Shown: piece by piece, positions 288-7,549 of the stretch
How positions within the stretch are numbered: position 1 is the first letter of the stretch
Layout of the letters: each line of letters opens with the position of its first letter
Virus record (IMG/VR): IMGVR_UViG_2675903665_000006
Direction: 5' to 3' (one strand)
Length of the DNA: 7,549 nt
Origin: a virus
Lineage: Duplodnaviria; Heunggongvirae; Uroviricota; Caudoviricetes
The notes under the pieces: generated by a model
Seen by the model: only the letters and a program-made list of their open reading frames with translations
What the model was told of the DNA's origin: nothing
Databases searched by the model: none
Made by a program: the position numbers and the translations under genes

Positions 288-1202
288 ATGCACTCGATAA
301 AAAAAGTAACCATGCTCTTGGGGGGCCTCGCACTCACCTGCTCGATCGCATTTCAGGCAAGTGCAACTGAAAAATTCAAGGTCATTACAACATTTACCAT
401 CATCGCGGATATGGCCAAAAACGTGGCGGGAGATGCTGCAGAAGTCTCATCTATAACCAAGCCTGGTGCAGAAATTCATGAGTATCAGCCTACCCCTGGC
501 GATATTAAACGTGCGCAGGGGGCACAACTGATTCTCGCCAATGGTATGAATCTGGAATTGTGGTTCCAACGCTTTTACCAGCATCTCAATGGGGTTCCAG
601 AAGTAATTGTCTCTTCGGGTGTGACGCCTGTAGGGATCACCGAAGGACCCTATGAGGGCAAACCTAACCCCCATGCATGGATGTCGCCAGATAATGCTCT
701 GATTTACGTCGATAATATTCGTGATGCGTTGATAAAATACGATCCGGCAAATGCACAAACCTACCAACGCAATGCCGATACTTATAAAGCCAAGATTACC
801 CAAACCCTTGCCCCCCTGCGTAAGCAGATTACGGAACTCCCTGAGAATCAGCGGTGGATGGTCACCAGTGAAGGGGCTTTTTCTTATCTCGCACGCGATT
901 TGGGGCTAAAAGAGCTTTATCTGTGGCCGATTAATGCCGATCAACAAGGAACACCGCAGCAGGTACGTAAGGTTGTTGATATAGTTAAGAAAAATCATAT
1001 CCCGGCAGTCTTTAGCGAGAGTACGATTTCCGATAAACCAGCGCGTCAGGTTGCGCGTGAAACCGGCGCACACTACGGCGGTGTGCTCTATGTCGATTCC
1101 CTGAGCACAGAAAACGGCCCGGTACCGACATATATCGACCTTCTTAAGGTTACTACCAGTACGCTGGTACAGGGAATTAAAGCCGGGAAAAGGGAGAAAT
1201 AA
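288..1202 (+). CDS. sitA: Periplasmic Mn2+/Fe2+-binding protein of an ABC transporter (cluster A-I, TroA/PsaA/YfeA-like), 304 aa
   Basis: ORF with an N-terminal signal peptide (basic n-region KK, hydrophobic core [19 protein letters not shown] cleavage-like motif). Candidate metal ligands in [19 protein letters not shown] and YVDSLS. Weak SD (AGGT, 8-nt spacer). An alternative ATG at 312 lacks the basic n-region. Confidence 0.9.
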
Positions 1203-2029
1203 TGATGCAATCTGCAGGCATTGTCGTTAATGATGTTGCTGTCACCTGGCGTAACGGGCACACAGCACTGCGCGATGCATCCTTCACAGTACCAAGTGGA
1301 TCTATTGCCGCTCTGGTTGGGGTAAACGGTTCCGGAAAATCGACGTTGTTTAAAGCGATTATGGGATTTGTGCGTCTGACCAGCGGAAAGATATCTGTTC
1401 TGGGTATTCCCACGCGACAGGCGTTACAGAAAAACCTGGTTGCCTACGTCCCTCAGTCAGAAGAGGTTGACTGGTCATTTCCTGTACTGGTGGAAGATGT
1501 GGTGATGATGGGCCGCTATGGGCATATGGGTATGTTGCGTATCGCCAAAAAGAGGGATCGTCAAATTGTCACCGATGCGCTAGAACGTGTCGATATGGTG
1601 AATTTTCGCCATCGACAAATCGGCGAGCTTTCCGGTGGACAAAAGAAACGCGTCTTTCTGGCGAGAGCGATTGCACAGCAGGGTGATGTGATCCTGCTGG
1701 ATGAACCTTTTACTGGCGTTGATGTGAAAACCGAAGCCAAAATCATCAGCCTGTTGAGGGAGTTACGCGCGGAAGGCAAAACGATGCTTGTCTCAACGCA
1801 CAATCTCGGATCCGTCACGACATTTTGCGATTATACGGTCATGGTCAAAGGCACCGTCCTGGCAAGCGGGCCGACAGACACCACTTTTACAGCCGAGAAC
1901 CTGGAGCTGGCTTTTAGCGGCGTACTGCGCCATGTCACACTTAACGGCTCGGAAGAAAGCATTATTACTGACGATGAACGCCCTTTTGTGGCTCATCGAC
2001 CGTCAGCGGTGCAGAGGGAAGAAAGATGA
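1202..2029 (+). CDS. sitB: ABC transporter ATP-binding subunit for Mn2+/Fe2+ import, 275 aa
   Basis: Walker [13 protein letters not shown] signature LSGGQKKR, Walker B ILLDEP, H-loop STHNL. SD GGGAG upstream; the ATG overlaps the sitA stop (TAATG). Confidence 0.9.
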
Positions 2030-2883
2030 ACGTGCTACTGGAACCCTTCAGCTATGAATATATGCTCAATGCGATGTGGGTCTCGGCGATGGTCGGCGGT
2101 CTCTGCGCTTTCCTGTCATGCTATCTGATGCTAAAAGGCTGGTCGCTGATTGGCGATGCGTTGTCGCACTCTATTGTCCCGGGTGTTGCGGGGGCATATA
2201 TGCTGGGGCTTCCGTTTTCTCTGGGAGCCTTCTTTTCCGGCGGACTGGCTGCGGGCAGCATGCTGTTTCTTAACCAACGCACCCGCTTAAAAGAAGATGC
2301 CATCATCGGCCTGATCTTCTCGTCCTTTTTTGGCCTGGGGCTGTTTATGGTGTCATTGAACCCGACATCTGTGAACATTCAGACCATCGTCCTGGGCAAT
2401 ATTCTGGCAATCGATCCGGCGGATATCCTGCAACTCACTATCATTGGCATTCTCTCGATCATCGTGCTTTTTTTCAAATGGAAAGATCTTATGGTGACCT
2501 TTTTCGACGAGAATCACGCCCGTGCTATTGGATTGCATCCGGGCAGATTAAAACTCCTCTTCTTCACCCTGCTGTCGGTTTCGACCGTTGCGGCGCTGCA
2601 AACGGTTGGTGCCTTTCTGGTGATCTGTCTGGTGGTGACTCCCGGAGCAACAGCATGGTTGTTAACCGATCGTTTTCCCCGCCTGCTCATGATTGCTGTA
2701 ACTATTGGCAGTGTAACCAGTTTCCTCGGCGCGTGGGTCAGTTACTTTCTGGACGGCGCGACAGGTGGAATCATCGTGGTGGCGCAGACACTGCTGTTTC
2801 TTTTAGCATTTGTCTTTGCGCCCACCCATGGGCTTTTGGCAAATCGTCGGCGTGCGCATAAGGCGCTGGAGGATCGCTCATGA
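2026..2883 (+). CDS. sitC: ABC-3 family metal permease subunit, 285 aa
   Basis: Highly hydrophobic polytopic protein; its start overlaps the sitB stop (ATGA), indicating translational coupling; same length and architecture as the adjacent paralogue. Confidence 0.88.
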
Positions 2884-3737
2884 TGGCATTATTACTGGAG
2901 CCACTGCAGTTCACCTTTATAAGTCACGCACTGCTGATTTCACTGGTAGTTTCCATACCCTGTGCGCTGCTGTCGGTCTTTCTGGTCCTGAAAGGTTGGG
3001 CACTGATGGGTGACGCGATGAGTCATGCGGTTTTTCCTGGCATCGTGCTTGCCTGGATTCTGGGGTTACCTTTGGCTACAGGGGCATTCGTCGCCGGAGT
3101 ATTCTGCGCGGTGGCGACGGGATACCTGAAAGACAACAGCCGAATCAAGCAAGATACAGTGATGGGGATTGTTTTTTCTGGCATGTTTGCCGCAGGTCTG
3201 ATCTTGTATATTGCAGTCAAACCAGACGTACATCTTGACCATATTCTTTTCGGCGACATGCTCGGGATAACCATCGGCGATATAATCCAGACGGTGATTA
3301 TTGCTGGGCTGGTTACACTTGTTATTAGCGTAAAATGGCGAGATTTTTTGCTGTTCAGCTTTGATTATCAACAGGCGCAGGTAAGCGGTTTGCATACGAG
3401 ATGGCTGCATTATGGGCTGCTGTGCATGGTCTCTATGACCATTGTGGCGACGCTGAAAGCGGTAGGTATCATTCTCTCCATTTCTCTGCTCATTGCGCCT
3501 GGCGCCATTGCGGTACTCCTGACACAACGCTTTCATATTGCGCTCCTACTGGCGACTGGCATATCGGTAATAGTGTCAATGACTGGTGTCTGGTTGTCCT
3601 TTTTTATCGACAGCGCACCAGCTCCGACGATTGTCGTCTTATTCGCGGTTTTGTTCATCATGACGTTTGCCGTTACCAGCATCAACGCACGCAAAAAGGG
3701 AAACTCCCATACACAGGATCTGTTATCACCCAATTAG
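2880..3737 (+). CDS. sitD: ABC-3 family metal permease subunit, 285 aa
   Basis: Paralogue of the preceding permease (shared motifs such as LKGW.L.GDA.SH..PG); its start overlaps the sitC stop (ATGA); stop TAG at 3735-3737. Confidence 0.88.
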   Translation: MMALLLEPLQFTFISHALLISLVVSIPCALLSVFLVLKGWALMGDAMSHAVFPGIVLAWILGLPLATGAFVAGVFCAVATGYLKDNSRIKQDTVMGIVFSGMFAAGLILYIAVKPDVHLDHILFGDMLGITIGDIIQTVIIAGLVTLVISVKWRDFLLFSFDYQQAQVSGLHTRWLHYGLLCMVSMTIVATLKAVGIILSISLLIAPGAIAVLLTQRFHIALLLATGISVIVSMTGVWLSFFIDSAPAPTIVVLFAVLFIMTFAVTSINARKKGNSHTQDLLSPN

Positions 3738-3828: not shown

Positions 3829-4128
3829 TCACCCACGATTAACCAACAGCCAGACCAGCAGACACGCCACCACCGGCACAGCAAAATCCATCAGGCTTGC
3901 CACATCCCAAACACGCGGATCAAAACCGCCCCACCACGGCATGTTAATCCGCTTGCCATGCCCGAACATTTCAATCCAGCGATATTCTGCCTGGGTGTGT
4001 TCACGCGCAATGAAGAACGTACAACCGGCTATCGCTCCGTAAGCCCAGTTCCCGGTAAAAAGACCAATCAGTAGCTGCGCAGCCACAGCACAAAGAGCAT
4101 GAAGGAAAGGTGTTATATCCATTTTCAT
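3829..4128 (-). CDS. Small inner-membrane protein of unknown function, ~97-102 aa, two predicted TM helices
   Basis: Clean ORF with two hydrophobic helices (FLHALCAVAAQLLIGLFTGNWAYGAIAGCTFFI and FAVPVVACLLVWLLV) flanking a charged, Trp-rich loop (REHTQAEYRWIEMFGHGKRINMPWWGGFDPRVWD). The track start at 4137 is TTG; in-frame ATGs lie at 4128 and 4122, the latter with AGGA 5 nt upstream. The overlapping +-strand ORFs look like low-complexity noise. Confidence 0.55.
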   Translation of the reverse strand: MKMDITPFLHALCAVAAQLLIGLFTGNWAYGAIAGCTFFIAREHTQAEYRWIEMFGHGKRINMPWWGGFDPRVWDVASLMDFAVPVVACLLVWLLVNRG

Positions 4129-4140
4129 CCTACCCAATAA

Positions 4141-4167
4141 AACGGGGCGCTCGGCCCCTTAATATTA
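4141..4167 (-). terminator. Rho-independent terminator-like hairpin just downstream of the 346-aa fibre-like gene, possibly bidirectional
   Basis: GGGGC (4144-4148) and GCCCC (4154-4158) form a GC-rich stem with a 5-nt loop; on the - strand it is followed by GTTTTATT, on the + strand preceded by an A-run and followed by TTAATATTATTT. The stop of the 346-aa gene is at 4165-4167. Confidence 0.45.
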
Positions 4168-4190
4168 TTTAGACGCAAGCGCCGCCTCAA
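4162..4190 (-). promoter_or_regulatory. Putative sigma70 promoter for the small membrane-protein gene, embedded in the 3' end of the fibre-like gene
   Basis: On the - strand: TTGAGG (plus 4190-4185), 17-bp spacer, TAATAT (plus 4167-4162). Hexamers found by eye; unverified. Confidence 0.2.
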
Positions 4191-5205
4191 TTGCAGATAA
4201 TCTTTGTCTTAATTCTGCGTTTTCTTCTTCCAGTGCTGTTATTCTGTCGTCTGACTCTCTGACTACCTGAACAAGCAAGCCAGTAACACCAGAATAATCT
4301 ACAGTGTAATACCGTTCACCTTCTTCTCCATCTAATCCACTCCCGCCGTCTGGATATTTCATCATAGACCCTACGGCTTCGGGGATGGCTTCCAGGGTTT
4401 CTTGTGCAATAACACCAGCGTAAGGCATACCGTTTTCTTTAAGCGTGTATGTATAGCCGTTCATTTTACGAATGCGGTCGGTTGCATTATCGATCACCTG
4501 AATATTGTCTTTCAGATCCCGGTCAGAGCCTTGATTAAATGCACTTGCATTGCACGCGCCGTTAACCGTTAATTCGTAGGTATTGCTGGTAGTTTTCTGC
4601 GCATAGAACATATAAGCGCCACCATCAACACCGACTTCATAAACAACAGGACGGCTGGAGTTGCCCCACAATTGAGCAGTAACACCAGCATAAGCGGTTC
4701 CCTGTGTGTTTAATGTCATGGTTGACCCATGATTGGCATATTTGATCTGTAATGTGTCGGTGTAATCAAATTTAATAAGCGCGTTACTTCCACGCTTACT
4801 GTATGACATAAGGCAGTTACCCATTTTGAGGTATCCGCTGTCACCGGGAAAAATCATCGTACCGCCATAAAGGTTGGTAAAGTCCCAGCAAATGTTTGTC
4901 CCGTTATCGTTCAGGTTAAGGCGCGCCATTGCGTTACCTGGACTGTCTATCCATTTTTTGAGGTATAGTTCGCAATACGCATCCTCAACACCTGCCGTCC
5001 TGTGAGTTGAGCGGAGTTTTCTCCCAAATATAGCTCCGCTAGTTGGCAATACCTGCTGATACCATGAAGCAGACCAGTCACCAACGGTTTCATCTTTGCT
5101 GTCTACATATGATTTTGTTGCGTAGCTTCCTTGATCGTTTTTTAATTTGCTAACGTCGGATTTTAGCGTTTTGATGTCTTCAGGAATTACTGTCGATGTA
5201 GCCAT
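4165..5205 (-). CDS. Tail-fibre/tail-spike-like receptor-binding protein with a C-terminal Peptidase S74 intramolecular chaperone domain, 346 aa
   Basis: C-terminus SDRDLKDNIQVIDNATDRIRKMNGYTYTLKENGMPYAGVIAQETLEAIPEAV...ITALEEENAELRQRL fits the S74 auto-cleaving chaperone pattern (Ser/Lys dyad, GxIAQE, PExV, terminal coiled coil). LWGNSSRPVVYEVG resembles a P2 H-type fibre motif. SD GAGGA is 7 nt upstream of the ATG. Confidence 0.85.
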   Translation of the reverse strand: MATSTVIPEDIKTLKSDVSKLKNDQGSYATKSYVDSKDETVGDWSASWYQQVLPTSGAIFGRKLRSTHRTAGVEDAYCELYLKKWIDSPGNAMARLNLNDNGTNICWDFTNLYGGTMIFPGDSGYLKMGNCLMSYSKRGSNALIKFDYTDTLQIKYANHGSTMTLNTQGTAYAGVTAQLWGNSSRPVVYEVGVDGGAYMFYAQKTTSNTYELTVNGACNASAFNQGSDRDLKDNIQVIDNATDRIRKMNGYTYTLKENGMPYAGVIAQETLEAIPEAVGSMMKYPDGGSGLDGEEGERYYTVDYSGVTGLLVQVVRESDDRITALEEENAELRQRLSAIEAALASK

Positions 5206-5214
5206 TTTTCTTCC

Positions 5215-5496
5215 TCACATCCAGCCACGAAGTTGATGCTCAACAGCAACCACGTATTCATCGAATATTGACGATTTTTTTGCATCATTAATGATGCGCA
5301 CGTTTACAAAATATCCGTCTTCCTTAACACATACCGGCTCGCCATCTTCGGTAAGTTCTCCGGTTTCTTTGTACACGTTACCTATCACGTCAATAAGAAT
5401 ATCATCCTGCATCGACTCATCATCATAATAGCCGATACTCTCCATAAAGGCCGAAAAGTCGGCCCTGTCGACAAATTTGAGTGTTAAATCTTTCAT
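5215..5496 (-). CDS. Hypothetical acidic protein, 93 aa, translationally coupled to the upstream tail-fibre gene
   Basis: Its ATG overlaps the fibre gene stop (TAATG); its own stop overlaps the SD of the next gene; rich in Asp/Glu. No family recognised. Confidence 0.55.
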   Translation of the reverse strand: MKDLTLKFVDRADFSAFMESIGYYDDESMQDDILIDVIGNVYKETGELTEDGEPVCVKEDGYFVNVRIINDAKKSSIFDEYVVAVEHQLRGWM

Positions 5497-7102
5497 TAGA
5501 TTAACTCCCCCACCTGAGCATCAGTCAATGCCTTGTGCCATATTCTGAAATTCCTGACATGACCAAATAAATGACGTAACCCGGCTGTAGTCTGGCCTCC
5601 AATACGGATAATTGCGGTGTTCTGAATATAGGACCATGTGGCTTTTGTTTCGCTGGATATACGCCCGTTACTTACTGAGCACGTAGACTGATCTGACTTT
5701 ACACGCATCCCCATAACCATTTTTTCAAGCAATGCGTTTTCGTTTACCCGTCTGTTAGCTCCTCCAATATCGCAATAAGGAAATCCGTCATAATCTGTTG
5801 AACGACCGAAGCCAAGAATAATAGCCGCTCCGGTTTGATGACCACCGGTATCAAAAACACGTGGCGCTGCATTTGGCGTTTTATACCAGTTCTTATGTAC
5901 CTCACAAAGAACCGTAAAAGGAAGATTATAAAGGTTATTCTTGATTGGGACTGTCACCATATCGCTTGCGCGAGTGCTTGCAGTTATATCAGTTACAATA
6001 AATGACGAAGCACTTGATCCACCTTCCACTTGTGGAGTTGCGATATCCAGATAGTCTCCAGATGCTGTGCCTGAACCTTTTACTGGAGCATATTGAACCA
6101 TCGCACCAATCATGCTCTCTGTATCTAGTGCATTAATTGTAGCCTGATAGAAAATCCAACCAGTAGCCTCATCTTTTACAGCCTTTGCAATAATACGATT
6201 TGCTGCACCACCAGTCTTATCAATTACAAGTGTTGATAAATTGAGGTAAGCATCTCCCAAAAAAGTGTAAGTAGAACCATCATGATGTTCAAATCTTAAA
6301 CGACACCTTATATTTTCAACATCACTTCTGACACGGCATGAAATGGTCACATATTTTTCATCACCTGTGACATCAAATCCTTTACTGCCAGAAACCGTTA
6401 CGATATTAATCGCACTTGTCTGATCAATAAGAGTATCTTTTACAGTAAATCTCCCATAAGTAAAATTAAAAGAATCCGTGGATATTTCTGTGAGTTCCAG
6501 ATTGCCTGACTTATTCCATTTAGATGGATTTGTTGAATTAAGCAGAAGATTAGTTCTTTGCCCCTCAATAAGCAGGCCATCACGTTCAAATCGCGGCTCG
6601 TCAATGGCAGCCTCTGTCAGTACACCAGATTTATTAATATAGGTTGCTTTCGATGCGCGTTTAAACTTAACAACCTTGTCACCAGGCATCGTTATTTCAT
6701 CATCACCAATAACAATCTTTTTATATGATGGCGAAAAGCCCGTAATCATATCCAGTGAATCGTTAAACGGTATCCACACATCTGGAAGCGGCTGCAAAAC
6801 TTGTTTATACGGCTCCGCAGCCTGGCTTGCATACTCTCTGGCTGCGTCTTCACTTGCTTTTGCAGCCGTCTGGCTTGCAGCGGATGCTTTCGCCGAGTTA
6901 GCCGCCGCAGTCTCGCTCGCCTTTGCGTTGGTTTCACTGGTTTTTGCAGCTTTTTGACTGTTGGCTGATGCAGTGGCAGAAGAAGCCGCCGCACTTGCAG
7001 AACCAGCTGCGGCACTCTCGCTTTGGGCTGCAGCATCCTGACTGTTTTTCGCCGCAGTTTCACTGGCTTTGGCATTCGACCAAAACGGGAAGCTAATCGC
7101 AT
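5496..7102 (-). CDS. Stf-like side tail-fibre protein, N-terminally truncated: Ala/Ser-rich repeat region plus a C-terminal LamG/ConA-like lectin-type domain; start unresolved, possibly a pseudogene
   Basis: The body frame is open from 7115 to the stop at 5496-5498 and encodes ...AKASETAAKNSQDAAAQSESAAAGSASAAASSATASANSQKAAKTSETNAKASETAAANSAKASAASQTAAKASEDAAREYA..., typical of lambdoid Stf fibres, ending FGHVRNFRIWHKALTDAQVGELI (LamG-like tail). The only SD+ATG (AGGAG, ATG at 7102-7100) is one base out of frame; the first canonical in-frame start is TTG at 6797. Confidence 0.7.
6800..7080 (-). repeat. Degenerate short tandem repeats encoding the Ala/Ser/Thr-rich (AAKxSETxA-type) fibre shaft
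   Basis: Reiterated imperfect units such as cgccgcagtctcgctcgcctttgc and cgccgcagtttcactggctttggc on the + strand; translation on the - strand gives repeating A-K-A/T-S-E-T-A-A motifs. Confidence 0.5.
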
Positions 7103-7161
7103 AACAGTAACTCCTTTATGAAGGCATAAAATTAATAAAATTTTTTTCGCTTAATATCATC

Positions 7162-7203
7162 CCCCTCGGTTATCGTTAACAAAAAGACAACAATTCCGAG
7201 GGG
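7162..7203. other. Inverted repeat (8-bp arms, 26-nt loop) in the intergenic region upstream of the tail-fibre gene
   Basis: CCCCTCGG (7162-7169) and CCGAGGGG (7196-7203) are exact reverse complements; the loop contains GTTAAC; an AT-rich tract (7110-7150) follows on the - strand before the fibre SD. Confidence 0.4.
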
Positions 7204-7211
7204 AAGGACCA

Positions 7212-7508
7212 TCAAATCAGGTCAGTTCGGGACTGACCAACCTGCCGAGTGAAAAGCAGTAACAGCGCGATCAACTCATCAGCGTTTTTTCTGACAAGAG
7301 GAGTATGATTCTCCAGGCTATCCAGTAAGTCATGCAGCTCATTATTGACCTGGTGGAGCACCTTAAAGAGTGCACCAGAATCCCGGCAGCTCTGATATGC
7401 AAGATTTGCCTGAACAGCACGATTCTGCATGATCCCGATTTGTGCGATTGCGTCTTTCTGCTGATCGCCTGTTGGCTGATAAGTGGTGTTAAAAGAAAAT
7501 GCGCTCAT
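7212..7508 (-). CDS. Hypothetical protein, 98 aa, phage-associated by context
   Basis: ORF with strong SD (AGGAGG, ~5 nt spacer) before the ATG at 7508-7506; stop TGA at 7214-7212; predicted largely helical; no family recognised. Confidence 0.55.
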   Translation of the reverse strand: MSAFSFNTTYQPTGDQQKDAIAQIGIMQNRAVQANLAYQSCRDSGALFKVLHQVNNELHDLLDSLENHTPLVRKNADELIALLLLFTRQVGQSRTDLI

Positions 7509-7549
7509 AATTCCTCCTGTATCTGATGTTTTCAGCCCCCATCATCTGT

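What the first reader, a model, noticed from the sequence alone, without database searches (positions are those of the whole stretch)
4165..5205. Compact 346-aa fibre-like protein with an S74 intramolecular chaperone but no tail-attachment domain
The C-terminal ~110 aa carry the hallmark motifs of the auto-cleaving chaperone domain found on endosialidases and long tail fibres, preceded by a receptor-binding-like region with a P2 H-type motif. The N-terminus is only a short Lys-rich segment, so it is unclear how this protein would join a virion. It could be an exchangeable receptor-binding cassette, a fibre that docks onto the upstream fibre, or a remnant.
Basis: partly seen in the sequence, partly recalled or inferred. 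Interest (0 to 1): 0.5.

Follow-up and report, generated by a model that had tools for sequence, protein, structure and literature searches.

The report
Distal side-tail-fibre subunit in prophage remnant
The 346-aa ORF is an intact copy of a very common coliphage protein, the outer, self-cleaving piece of a two-part side tail fibre. Here it sits in a phage fragment whose inner fibre gene has lost its tail anchor, so it is ordinary and probably idle.

Summary
Window 4165-5205 (minus strand) encodes a 346-aa protein with a Peptidase_S74 intramolecular chaperone (PF13884, E 6.5e-14; Ser227/Lys232 invariant). A P2 gpH / T4 gp34-type shaft motif precedes it (hhalign 97.6%, E 2.7e-12).

The ORF is not a fragment. 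It matches PHROG 4563 end to end (346/346), is 100% identical to RefSeq WP_021544429.1, and occurs in 713 of 5426 complete E. coli genomes.

In intact lambdoid phages (Tritos, 2G7b, HannyBb) the gene order is J, a ~790-aa Stf-like proximal fibre, a 93-aa protein, this gene, then a 97-aa membrane protein.

The "missing" attachment domain is probably a 16-residue N-terminal peptide, M[AV]TxT[VIN]IPxDI[TK]xLK. Otherwise unrelated distal fibres of T1-like, Dhillonvirus, Nonagvirus and T5-like phages share it. In 194 of 194 motif occurrences it lay directly downstream of a homologue of the 93-aa gene. Published AlphaFold-Multimer models for the T5-like relative IrisVonRoten place its distal fibre on the proximal fibre.

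In this window the proximal fibre gene is cut at position 7078, losing residues 1-267 and the Stf collar domain, and is fused to F-plasmid leading-region DNA. The locus is therefore a remnant next to the sitABCD moron. This is a known kind of system and of low interest.

The parts
4165..5205 (-). Complete gene for the 346-aa distal side-tail-fibre subunit (37.9 kDa), including the stop codon at 4165-4167
   Evidence: ORF list. Full-length match to phrog_4563, E 1.9e-214, 346/346. 100% identical to WP_021544429.1, 'tail fiber domain-containing protein'.
5158..5205 (-). Residues 1-16, MATSTVIPEDIKTLKS: conserved N-terminal peptide and candidate docking element
   Evidence: 9-13 of 16 residues identical to the N-termini of swan01 gp04, KarlBarth gp30, JenP1 gp25, IrisVonRoten gp24 and FGS017 gp187, whose bodies differ. 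The best internal 16-mers match at only 3-6 of 16. 194 of 194 motif occurrences lie directly after a p93-family ORF.
5125..5181 (-). Residues 9-27: short heptad helix (I11, L14, V18, L21), a probable trimeric coiled-coil stalk
   Evidence: AF2 predicts a helix at residues 9-27. Homologues carry 7- or 11-residue repeat insertions at this position.
4861..5100 (-). Residues 36-115: hypervariable beta-rich segment, the candidate receptor-binding region
   Evidence: Among 45 distinct 346-aa alleles the mean pairwise identity here is 69% (minimum 34%), against 94% for residues 1-35 and 227-346.
4528..4743 (-). Residues 155-226: shaft module of the P2 gpH / T4 gp34 type (WGxSxRPVVxExG...FYxQ...VNG)
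   Evidence: hhalign against P2 gpH residues 534-611: 97.6%, E 2.7e-12. Profile against T4 gp34 residues 933-1023: E 7.5e-10. That gp34 stretch is triple beta-helix plus beta-prism (PMC5537660).
4168..4527 (-). Residues 227-346: S74 intramolecular chaperone (13.2 kDa) with the Ser227/Lys232 dyad and a C-terminal coiled coil
   Evidence: PF13884, E 6.5e-14. S227 and K232 invariant. Profile hit to the chaperone part of PDB 6f45, a long tail fiber distal subunit, E 1.7e-9. Predicted helix at residues 304-344.
4144..4158 (-). GC-rich hairpin followed by a T-run directly after the stop codon, terminator-like
   Evidence: Consensus scan. The number of such sites in the region is no higher than in shuffled sequence, so this is suggestive only.
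5215..5496 (-). 93-aa acidic protein (10.7 kDa, pI 4.2; phrog_1361). It always lies between the proximal and distal fibre genes and may be an adaptor or an assembly factor.
   Evidence: phrog_1361, E 1.7e-46. Present in 186 phage records across lambdoid, T1-like, Dhillonvirus, Nonagvirus, T5-like and rV5-like phages. No Pfam, NCBIfam or PDB match.
5496..7078 (-). 5'-truncated gene for the Stf-like proximal side tail fibre. It corresponds to residues ~268-794 of the intact 794-aa protein and has lost its start codon and the collar (tail-anchor) domain.
   Evidence: phrog_1419 positions 359-793. 99.9% identical to L007, which carries the intact 794-aa gene with PF08400 at residues 5-134. The reading frame is open but has no start codon upstream of the TTG at 6797.
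7076..7078 (.). Recombination junction with 3-nt CGA microhomology between the phage fibre gene and the F-plasmid leading region (codon 9 of the DUF932 gene)
   Evidence: Three-way alignment of the window, plasmid L004 and phage L007. Window 7076-7549 is 100% identical to many IncF plasmids.
3829..4122 (-). 97-aa predicted membrane protein (phrog_1443) that follows the fibre cassette in nearly all related loci. Function unknown; probably a moron.
   Evidence: phrog_1443, E 1.2e-58, starting at residue 6 of the listed ORF. Conserved position in L001, L002 and 70+ IMG/VR loci.

Best explanation
The ORF encodes the distal, receptor-binding subunit of a two-part side (lateral) tail fibre of lambda-like coliphages.

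Inferred assembly, by homology with T5 pb1 and the K1F endosialidase: three chains trimerise, guided by the C-terminal S74 chaperone. Once the gpH/gp34-type beta-helix/beta-prism has formed, Ser227 activated by Lys232 cuts Gly226|Ser227. This releases the 13-kDa chaperone and leaves a 25-kDa mature chain.

Inferred from comparative genomics and from a published AlphaFold-Multimer model of a relative: the mature trimer joins the virion indirectly. Its conserved 16-residue N-terminal peptide plus a short coiled coil plugs into the distal end of the upstream Stf-like proximal fibre, with or through the 93-aa protein encoded between the two genes. The proximal fibre in turn holds the tail through its N-terminal collar domain. 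The variable segment 36-115 would set glycan (O-antigen/LPS) specificity and can be exchanged by recombination.

Shown directly for this window: the cassette is a relic. The proximal fibre gene is cut at 7078 and lacks its start codon and collar domain. No other tail genes are present, and the fragment is fused to F-plasmid DNA beside the sitABCD moron. The intact ORF therefore cannot build a fibre from this locus. At most it is a reservoir allele that an incoming phage could pick up by recombination.
For: Identity and completeness:
- PF13884 with an invariant Ser/Lys dyad.
- Full-length PHROG match.
- An identical RefSeq protein in a prophage that has intact J and Stf genes.

Synteny:
- The order J, ~790-aa Stf-like fibre, 93-aa gene, 346-aa gene, 97-aa gene is seen in the isolated phage Tritos and in an E. 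coli prophage.
- The same order from the Stf-like fibre onward holds in the 80 IMG/VR loci that were retrieved by homology to this protein.

Shared N-terminal peptide:
- Four of five distant phage lineages with a 93-aa homologue have, right after it, a gene that starts with the same peptide but has a different body of 224, 98+196, 351 or 574 aa.
- The T5-like phage FGS017 has LtfC collar, phrog_1419 fibre, phrog_1361, then a 581-aa S74 fibre starting MVTKTVIPTDITKLK.
- A motif-only scan of IMG/VR found a p93-family ORF directly upstream in 194 of 194 cases.

Modular proximal fibres: their N-terminal anchors are lineage-specific, but they share a conserved module at residues 361-440 and 761-794.

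Variability pattern typical of a receptor-binding protein: conserved N-terminus, variable middle, conserved chaperone.

Literature:
- IrisVonRoten Gp24, which has the same N-terminal peptide, is modelled as attaching to the proximal fibre Gp22 (PMC11990801).
- DT57C LtfB attaches via LtfA (PMC4728585 and PMC10713586).
- Lateral fibres made of two or more proteins are noted for small siphoviruses (PMC8594841).
- Lambda Stf residues 1-91 form the collar that holds the tail (PMC12617516).

Relic status.

Rescue of fibre genes from defective prophages by lambda has been demonstrated (PMC3945230).
Against: - No experiment or solved structure exists for this lambdoid family. The attachment is inferred from gene order, a shared peptide and a published prediction for a T5-like relative.
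- The monomer AF2 model is poor (pLDDT 62, pTM 0.32) and gave no fold match. No multimer could be run.
- The Stf C-terminal domain varies from 40 to 100% identity while the 346-aa and 93-aa proteins stay near 95%. The docking site therefore cannot be the variable lectin-like domain itself.
- Residues 2 and 4 of the peptide co-vary perfectly with the 93-aa protein type, but the two lie only about 10 nt apart, so linkage can explain this.
- The 93-aa gene also occurs without any distal fibre gene (L003; JeffSchatz). It may therefore serve the proximal fibre rather than act as an adaptor.
- DT57C LtfB has a different N-terminus, so the analogy with that system concerns mechanism only, not homology of the docking element.
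Confidence: 0.7

Rival explanations
1. It is an independent short fibre that binds the tail tip or baseplate directly, for example to J or another tail protein, and not to the upstream fibre.
For: It has its own RBS and start codon and a possible terminator. Some phages carry separate short fibres with their own anchors, such as ManiWeber Gp114.
Against: The same N-terminal peptide occurs in lambdoid, T1-like, Dhillonvirus, Nonagvirus and T5-like phages, whose tail tips differ. In every case it comes with the phrog_1419 fibre and the phrog_1361 protein. Sixteen residues plus two heptads is far smaller than any known baseplate anchor.
Confidence: 0.1
2. It is not a receptor-binding protein. It would be a cap or a trans-acting assembly factor for the upstream fibre, which has no chaperone of its own. 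One phage record labels the homologue 'endosialidase chaperone'.
For: The upstream fibre has neither an S74 domain nor a Tfa. A sister class with the same N-terminus is only 227-234 aa long and has a mature part of about 115 aa.
Against: S74 chaperones are known to act in cis on the chain they are cleaved from (PMC4690869). Residues 36-115 are hypervariable, as in receptor-binding domains. Prophages without this gene keep the proximal fibre and the 93-aa gene, so the proximal fibre does not need it.
Confidence: 0.08
3. The copy in this window is still used. It would be expressed from the plasmid or chromosome context and incorporated by a co-resident lambdoid phage that supplies the proximal fibre.
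For: The ORF, the 93-aa gene and their ribosome-binding sites are intact, and the protein is identical to an allele found in a complete prophage. E. coli genomes often hold several related prophages: the 93-aa gene is found at up to 5 places per genome.
Against: No late promoter or antiterminated operon lies upstream. The upstream DNA is the F leading region reading into a frame-shifted chimeric ORF. The promoter scan found no more sites than in shuffled sequence.
Confidence: 0.1
4. The ORF is the 3' fragment of a longer fibre gene. Its C-terminal 250 residues resemble the ends of fibres of 1200-1567 aa.
For: phrog_6578 and phrog_5668 align residues 92-342 with the C-termini of proteins of 1210 and 1567 aa.
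Against: The match to a 346-position family profile is end to end. There are 45 distinct 346-aa alleles. The gene stands alone in isolated phages. The 93-aa gene's stop codon lies 9 nt upstream. The N-terminal peptide is conserved.
Confidence: 0.02

Closest known systems
Nonagvirus JenP1 gp25 and the RefSeq 'tail fiber domain-containing protein' family (PHROG 4563; WP_021544429.1)
   Same: Same family and same architecture over the full length. The same gene order, with the fibre after a 93-aa homologue and a phrog_1419 fibre. RefSeq holds an identical sequence.
   Different: Nothing substantive for the protein itself. Only the genomic context differs: in this window the partner fibre gene is truncated and the fragment abuts plasmid DNA.
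IrisVonRoten (Bas32, T5-like) Gp22 / Gp23 / Gp24 lateral tail fibre (Humolli et al. 2025, PMC11990801)
   Same: The gene trio is homologous: a phrog_1419 proximal fibre with a lectin-like domain, a 92-aa protein, then a distal fibre with an S74 chaperone. 10 of 16 N-terminal residues are identical. The distal fibre is modelled as attaching to the proximal fibre.
   Different: Gp24 is 574 aa and 'T-shaped', with a gp12-like RBD1 and a T5-like RBD2. The window protein is 346 aa with one variable segment and a gpH/gp34-type shaft. The proximal fibre anchors through the T5 LtfC collar rather than a lambda Stf collar domain.
DT57C LtfA / LtfB branched L-shaped tail fibre (Golomidova 2016; Ayala 2023)
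   Same: A second fibre protein with a C-terminal S74 chaperone is encoded right after the first and depends on it for attachment. Each recognises a different O-antigen.
   Different: LtfB is 788 aa. Its N-terminus (MSRPLMPKSG..., similar to phiEco32 gp15) is unrelated to MATSTVIP.... There is no 93-aa gene between ltfA and ltfB. LtfA itself carries an S74 domain, whereas the proximal fibre here does not.
T5 pb1 (L-shaped tail fibre) C-terminal domain with its intramolecular chaperone (PDB 4UW7/4UW8; PMC4690869)
   Same: A Ser/Lys autoproteolytic dyad with identical spacing. The chaperone has a central coiled coil and is released after the trimer folds.
   Different: pb1 is a single 1396-aa chain with its own tail anchor. 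No pb1 chain appeared in either sequence search of the PDB.
P2 gpH and T4 gp34 fibre shafts
   Same: They share a block of about 78 residues, WGxSxRPVVxExG...FYxQ...VNG. In gp34 this block is triple beta-helix plus beta-prism.
   Different: gpH needs the separate chaperone gpG and has a baseplate-binding N-terminus. gp34 is a proximal half-fibre. Neither has an S74 domain.

Membership tests
Peptidase_S74 / intramolecular-chaperone fibre proteins | Profile match to PF13884 above the curated cut-off, at the C-terminal end of the protein | tested here: met
   52.4 bits against a cut-off of 22, residues 227-278 of 346.
Peptidase_S74 / intramolecular-chaperone fibre proteins | Catalytic Ser with a Lys five residues downstream (T5 pb1 Ser1264/Lys1269) | tested here: met
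   Ser227 and Lys232, invariant in 40 sequences. Reference spacing taken from PMC4690869.
Peptidase_S74 / intramolecular-chaperone fibre proteins | A beta-helix or beta-prism shaft immediately before the scissile bond, and a coiled coil within the chaperone | tested here: met
   Residues 155-226 are homologous to P2 gpH 534-611 and T4 gp34 933-1023. A helix is predicted at residues 304-344. The structure is inferred, not solved.
Peptidase_S74 / intramolecular-chaperone fibre proteins | Autoproteolytic release of the chaperone after trimerisation | not testable with these tools
   Requires expression of the wild type against S227A or K232A. Expected result: 37.9 kDa cut into 24.7 + 13.2 kDa.
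PHROG 4563 / RefSeq 346-aa 'tail fiber domain-containing protein' | End-to-end match to the family profile and the same length | tested here: met
   E 1.9e-214, residues 1-346 against profile positions 1-346. 94% identical to a cluster of 2132 member sequences. An identical RefSeq protein exists.
Two-part (proximal + distal) lateral tail fibres, IrisVonRoten Gp22-Gp24 type | Gene order: phrog_1419 proximal fibre, phrog_1361 small protein, then the distal fibre | tested here: met
   Present in the window, in Tritos, in 80 IMG/VR loci, in FGS017 and in IrisVonRoten.
Two-part (proximal + distal) lateral tail fibres, IrisVonRoten Gp22-Gp24 type | Distal subunit begins with the shared peptide M[AV]TxT[VIN]IPxDI[TK]xLK | tested here: met
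   9-13 of 16 identities across lineages, against 3-6 of 16 for the best internal windows. 194 of 194 motif occurrences follow a p93-family ORF.
Two-part (proximal + distal) lateral tail fibres, IrisVonRoten Gp22-Gp24 type | A proximal fibre with a tail-anchoring N-terminal domain is encoded at the locus | tested here: not met
   In the window, residues 1-267 are missing, including PF08400 and the Stf collar. The feature is met in L007, Tritos and L1PEag1. The protein therefore belongs to the family, but this locus cannot assemble the fibre.
Two-part (proximal + distal) lateral tail fibres, IrisVonRoten Gp22-Gp24 type | Physical attachment of the distal trimer to the proximal fibre | not testable with these tools
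   The only support is a published AlphaFold-Multimer model for IrisVonRoten. No multimer prediction is available here.
DT57C LtfB family (phrog_6921) | LtfB-type N-terminal 45 residues (similar to phiEco32 gp15) that dock on LtfA | tested here: not met
   The LtfB N-terminus MSRPLMPKSGAMAPYVV... is unrelated. The phrog_6921 hit covers only the C-terminal part, E 2.4e-18.
P2 gpH-type tail fibres | gpH N-terminal baseplate-binding region and a separate gpG/Tfa chaperone | tested here: not met
   Only the 78-residue shaft block is shared. No Tfa gene is present, and the protein carries its own S74 chaperone instead.
Endosialidase / tailspike depolymerases | A catalytic glycosidase domain upstream of the S74 chaperone | tested here: not met
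   No enzymatic domain was found in Pfam, NCBIfam or PDB profile searches. The mature part is only 226 aa.

The most novel reading that the evidence does not exclude
The 16-residue N-terminal peptide and the 93-aa acidic protein (phrog_1361) could form a portable plug-and-socket. In this reading the 93-aa protein is a structural adaptor at the tip of the proximal fibre, not a chaperone. Any trimeric distal protein beginning M[AV]TxTVIPxDIxxLK could then be mounted on it. Phages of at least five lineages would be swapping distal receptor-binding proteins (the 346-aa type, the 227-234-aa mini type, the 574-aa T-shaped type) through this universal joint. That would give a ready-made handle for retargeting phages.
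Probability: 0.3. Interest if true: 0.45.

Novelty: already known. Interest (0 to 1): 0.18.

Why it matters
There is little new here. The protein is a catalogued, abundant prophage tail-fibre component, and the literature already describes two-part lateral fibres with S74-bearing distal subunits.

The protein joins the virion second-hand, through a tiny conserved N-terminal peptide.

It also documents a clean rule that could help phage annotation and host-range engineering: the peptide always follows a phrog_1361 gene, across five phage lineages and several distal-protein body types.

For this window, the practical message is that the phage genes next to sitABCD are a non-functional remnant fused to plasmid DNA, not a live prophage.

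Tried and rejected
- **AF2 monomer of the 346-aa protein** (40-sequence alignment): pLDDT 62, pTM 0.32. Foldseek against the PDB found nothing with E below 0.26. This is expected for an intertwined trimer and is uninformative.
- **AF2 of the 93-aa protein** (only near-identical homologues were allowed in the alignment): pLDDT 67.6 and the five models disagree. Foldseek gave only non-significant ferredoxin-like hits such as PII, CutA1 and S10, with E at or above 0.045. A profile search of the PDB with a diverse alignment found nothing.
- **NCBIfam**: no pyocin-knob or other domain was found in the 346-aa protein. From this and the Pfam result I first judged the 'P2 H-type motif' unsupported. 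The direct hhalign against P2 gpH overturned that judgement.
- **DT57C LtfB as a homologue of the docking element**: rejected, because the N-termini are unrelated.
- **Docking on the variable lectin-like domain of the proximal fibre**: rejected, because that domain varies from 40 to 100% identity while the partners stay constant.
- **Co-variation between the 93-aa protein type and peptide residues 2 and 4**: kept only as a hint, because the two sites lie about 10 nt apart.
- **Exact search for the 47-nt junction sequence in GTDB representative genomes**: no hit. This is uninformative, since the collection holds one genome per species. No record in the E. coli or plasmid collections spans the junction either.
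- **A wider alignment of 93-aa homologues for structure prediction**: the search listed only its best 120 hits, all at 84% identity or more, and ids for the remaining hits could not be retrieved.
Full report
**What is in the window.**
The ORF list and family scans give this layout:
- sitABCD on the plus strand at 288-3737.
- On the minus strand, reading from high to low coordinates:
  - an open frame without a start codon ending at 5496, matching phrog_1419 'tail protein' at profile positions 359-793;
  - a 93-aa ORF at 5215-5496 (phrog_1361, function unknown);
  - the 346-aa ORF of the finding at 4165-5205;
  - a roughly 97-aa membrane ORF at 3829-4122 (phrog_1443).
- Beyond 7078 the sequence is 100% identical to the leading region of many IncF plasmids, covering the start of the DUF932 gene, a 98-aa hypothetical gene and ssb.

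**Checking the observation.**
- The 346-aa ORF has an ATG start and a GAGGA ribosome-binding site.
- Pfam PF13884 (Peptidase_S74) matches residues 227-278 at E 6.5e-14.
- SDRDLK begins at Ser227. Ser227 and Lys232 are invariant in 40 homologues.
- Their spacing equals that of the catalytic Ser1264/Lys1269 of T5 pb1. There the cut is Thr1263|Ser1264 and the 133-residue chaperone leaves after trimer folding (PMC4690869).
- The predicted products are therefore 24.7 kDa (residues 1-226) and 13.2 kDa (residues 227-346).
The family profile aligns residues 155-233 with P2 gpH 534-611 (hhalign 97.6%, E 2.7e-12). It also aligns with T4 gp34 933-1023 (E 7.5e-10), a stretch that is triple beta-helix plus beta-prism in the crystal structure (PMC5537660).
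- Pfam and NCBIfam showed no other domain.

**It is a complete, common gene.**
- The match to phrog_4563 runs end to end, 346/346, E 1.9e-214.
- The closest protein cluster, at 94% identity, holds 2132 member sequences named 'tail fiber domain-containing protein'.
- The gene is found in 713 of 5426 complete E. coli genomes.
- An identical protein, WP_021544429.1, sits in a cytolethal-distending-toxin prophage of strain L1PEag1 with intact J and Stf genes.
- In the isolated phage Tritos the order is tape measure, M, L, K, I, J, a 790-aa 'lambda stf homolog', the 93-aa gene, the 346-aa gene and the 97-aa gene. Phages 2G7b and HannyBb match across the same cassette.
- The same order lies beside sitABCD in an E. 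coli prophage.
- All 80 IMG/VR loci retrieved with the protein keep the four-gene order.

**How it would join a virion.**
The 93-aa gene is the thread that connects the evidence.
- tblastn finds it in 186 phage records: lambdoid, T1-like, Dhillonvirus, Nonagvirus/Seuratvirus, T5-like and rV5-like. It always sits right after a lateral-fibre gene.
- I fetched five distant loci. In four of them the next gene starts with the same peptide as the window protein:
  - window: MATSTVIPEDIKTLKS
  - swan01 gp04: MATVTVIPSDITKLKS
  - KarlBarth gp30: MVTKTNIPADITALKN
  - JenP1 gp25: MVTKTIIPTDITTLKS
  - IrisVonRoten gp24: MVTKTVIPTDITKLKN
- The T5-like Salmonella phage FGS017 shows the same pattern.
- Pairwise identity over these 16 residues is 9-13 of 16. 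The best internal 16-mers reach only 3-6 of 16.
- The bodies behind the peptide differ widely: 224 aa, 98+196 aa, 351 aa, 574 aa and 581 aa.
- A degenerate DNA scan of IMG/VR for the peptide alone returned at least 120 loci. Pooling these with the 80 loci and the fetched phage loci, all 194 occurrences with enough upstream sequence have a p93-family ORF directly upstream. The loci were chosen by homology to the protein, so only the scan loci are an independent sample.
- Two main body classes carry the peptide: the 346-aa type and a 227-234-aa 'mini' S74 fibre (PF13884 E 4.7e-6).

The proximal fibres are themselves modular.
- Their N-terminal anchors are lineage-specific. In lambdoid phages the anchor is PF08400. 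In T5-like phages the fibre gene follows the LtfC collar gene.
- All share a highly conserved block at residues 361-440 and again at 761-794.
- The lectin-like middle part (NF048003) varies from 40 to 100% identity, independently of the two downstream genes.

Within the 346-aa family, residues 1-35 and 227-346 average 94% identity. Residues 36-115 average 69%, with a minimum of 34%. This is the usual pattern for a receptor-binding protein with a fixed joint and a fixed chaperone.

**Fit with the literature.**
- Humolli et al. (PMC11990801) model IrisVonRoten Gp24 as a distal fibre, with its intramolecular chaperone attached, that sits on the proximal fibre Gp22. Gp22 carries a galectin-like domain and connects to the tail. 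Gp22, Gp23 and Gp24 are homologues of the three window genes.
- Golomidova et al. and Ayala et al. showed genetically and by cryo-EM that DT57C LtfB reaches the virion via LtfA. LtfB's N-terminus is unrelated, so the parallel is one of mechanism only.
- Maffei et al. note that lateral fibres of small siphoviruses may consist of two or more proteins.
- In Ur-lambda, Stf residues 1-91 form the collar that grips the tail (PMC12617516).

**What remains open.**
The exact socket is not established.
- The 93-aa protein could be an adaptor. The motif is always paired with it, and peptide residues 2 and 4 co-vary perfectly with its sequence type. Linkage across about 10 nt can explain that co-variation, however.
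- It could instead be an assembly factor for the proximal fibre. It persists in prophages that lack any distal fibre gene (L003) and in rV5-like phages whose downstream gene is different.
- It has no Pfam, NCBIfam or PDB relatives. Its AF2 model is weak and ferredoxin-like, without significant matches.

**State of the locus in this window.**
- Window 3836-7078 is 99.9% identical to IMG/VR contig L007, which carries an intact 794-aa proximal fibre with PF08400 at residues 5-134.
- At 7076-7078 the window switches, through a 3-nt CGA overlap, to codon 9 of the F-plasmid DUF932 gene.
- The fibre frame stays open but has no start codon before the TTG at 6797, and residues 1-267 are gone.
- The window contains no J, tape-measure or head genes.
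- No record in the E. coli, plasmid or GTDB-representative collections spans this junction. It could be a rare rearrangement or an assembly chimera.
- sitABCD next to the fibre cassette is the normal moron position in gut lambda-like phages, where it is present in 70% of them (PMC6969025).
- The 346-aa gene here is therefore an intact passenger in a dead cassette. Lambda can recover stf-region DNA from defective prophages by recombination (PMC3945230), so a reservoir role is conceivable but untested.

**Verdict.**
The protein is a known, abundant distal side-tail-fibre subunit. The apparent lack of an anchor is explained by indirect attachment through a short conserved N-terminal peptide. Interest is low. 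The only mildly new element is the strict pairing of that peptide with the phrog_1361 gene across phage lineages.

Noticed in passing
window 7076-7078, and the ORF at 6746-7102 (minus strand): There is a clean junction with 3-nt CGA microhomology between the phage Stf-like gene (codon ~268) and codon 9 of the F-plasmid DUF932 gene. It creates a 118-aa chimeric ORF that starts as DUF932 (MRLASRFG) and reads the fibre stalk out of frame. No database record spans the junction, so it may be a rare rearrangement or an assembly chimera.
   Followed up: partly
window 5215-5496 (minus strand): The 93-aa acidic protein (phrog_1361) has no known function and no Pfam, NCBIfam or PDB relatives. It is conserved immediately after lateral-fibre genes in 186 phage records from six phage groups, and is found in 988 of 5426 E. 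coli genomes.
   Followed up: partly
IMG/VR loci such as L173, L105, L176; also L087 3194-3868 (swan01 gp04): A second class of 'mini' S74 fibres of 224-234 aa shares the same N-terminal peptide and gene position. Its mature part is only about 100-115 aa, made of coiled-coil repeats plus a short segment. In the motif-only sample it is slightly more frequent than the 346-aa class.
   Followed up: partly
window 3829-4122 (minus strand): A 97-aa predicted membrane protein (phrog_1443, function unknown) follows the fibre cassette in nearly every related locus, after a terminator-like hairpin at 4144-4158. It may be a moron, for example for superinfection exclusion.
   Followed up: no
L003 (plasmid pMS20655A) 9819-12460: Some prophages beside sitABCD have the Stf-like fibre, a 92-aa homologue and the 97-aa gene but no distal S74 gene at all. 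Only 12 nt separate the two small genes, so the distal fibre is optional.
   Followed up: partly
window 288-3737, and the boundary near 3836: The sitABCD iron/manganese transporter operon is a known moron of gut lambda-like phages. The window matches the L007-type prophage only from 3836 onward. L007's closest complete-genome relative, L1PEag1, carries cdtABC in the place of sit, so the window is a mosaic at this end too.
   Followed up: partly
window 6797-7078 (minus strand): The fibre stalk is an Ala/Ser/Lys/Thr-rich repeat (...SETNAKASETAAK...). An internal repeat is visible as a second BLAST alignment at 82% identity against a neighbouring part of the L007 gene. Such repeats could promote in-frame length changes in the stalk.
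   Followed up: no
L088 4770-5649 (phage KarlBarth gp30/gp31): The gene that carries the N-terminal peptide is only 98 aa here and overlaps a 196-aa ORF with no S74 domain. This could be a split or frameshifted distal fibre, or a different two-piece distal design.
   Followed up: no
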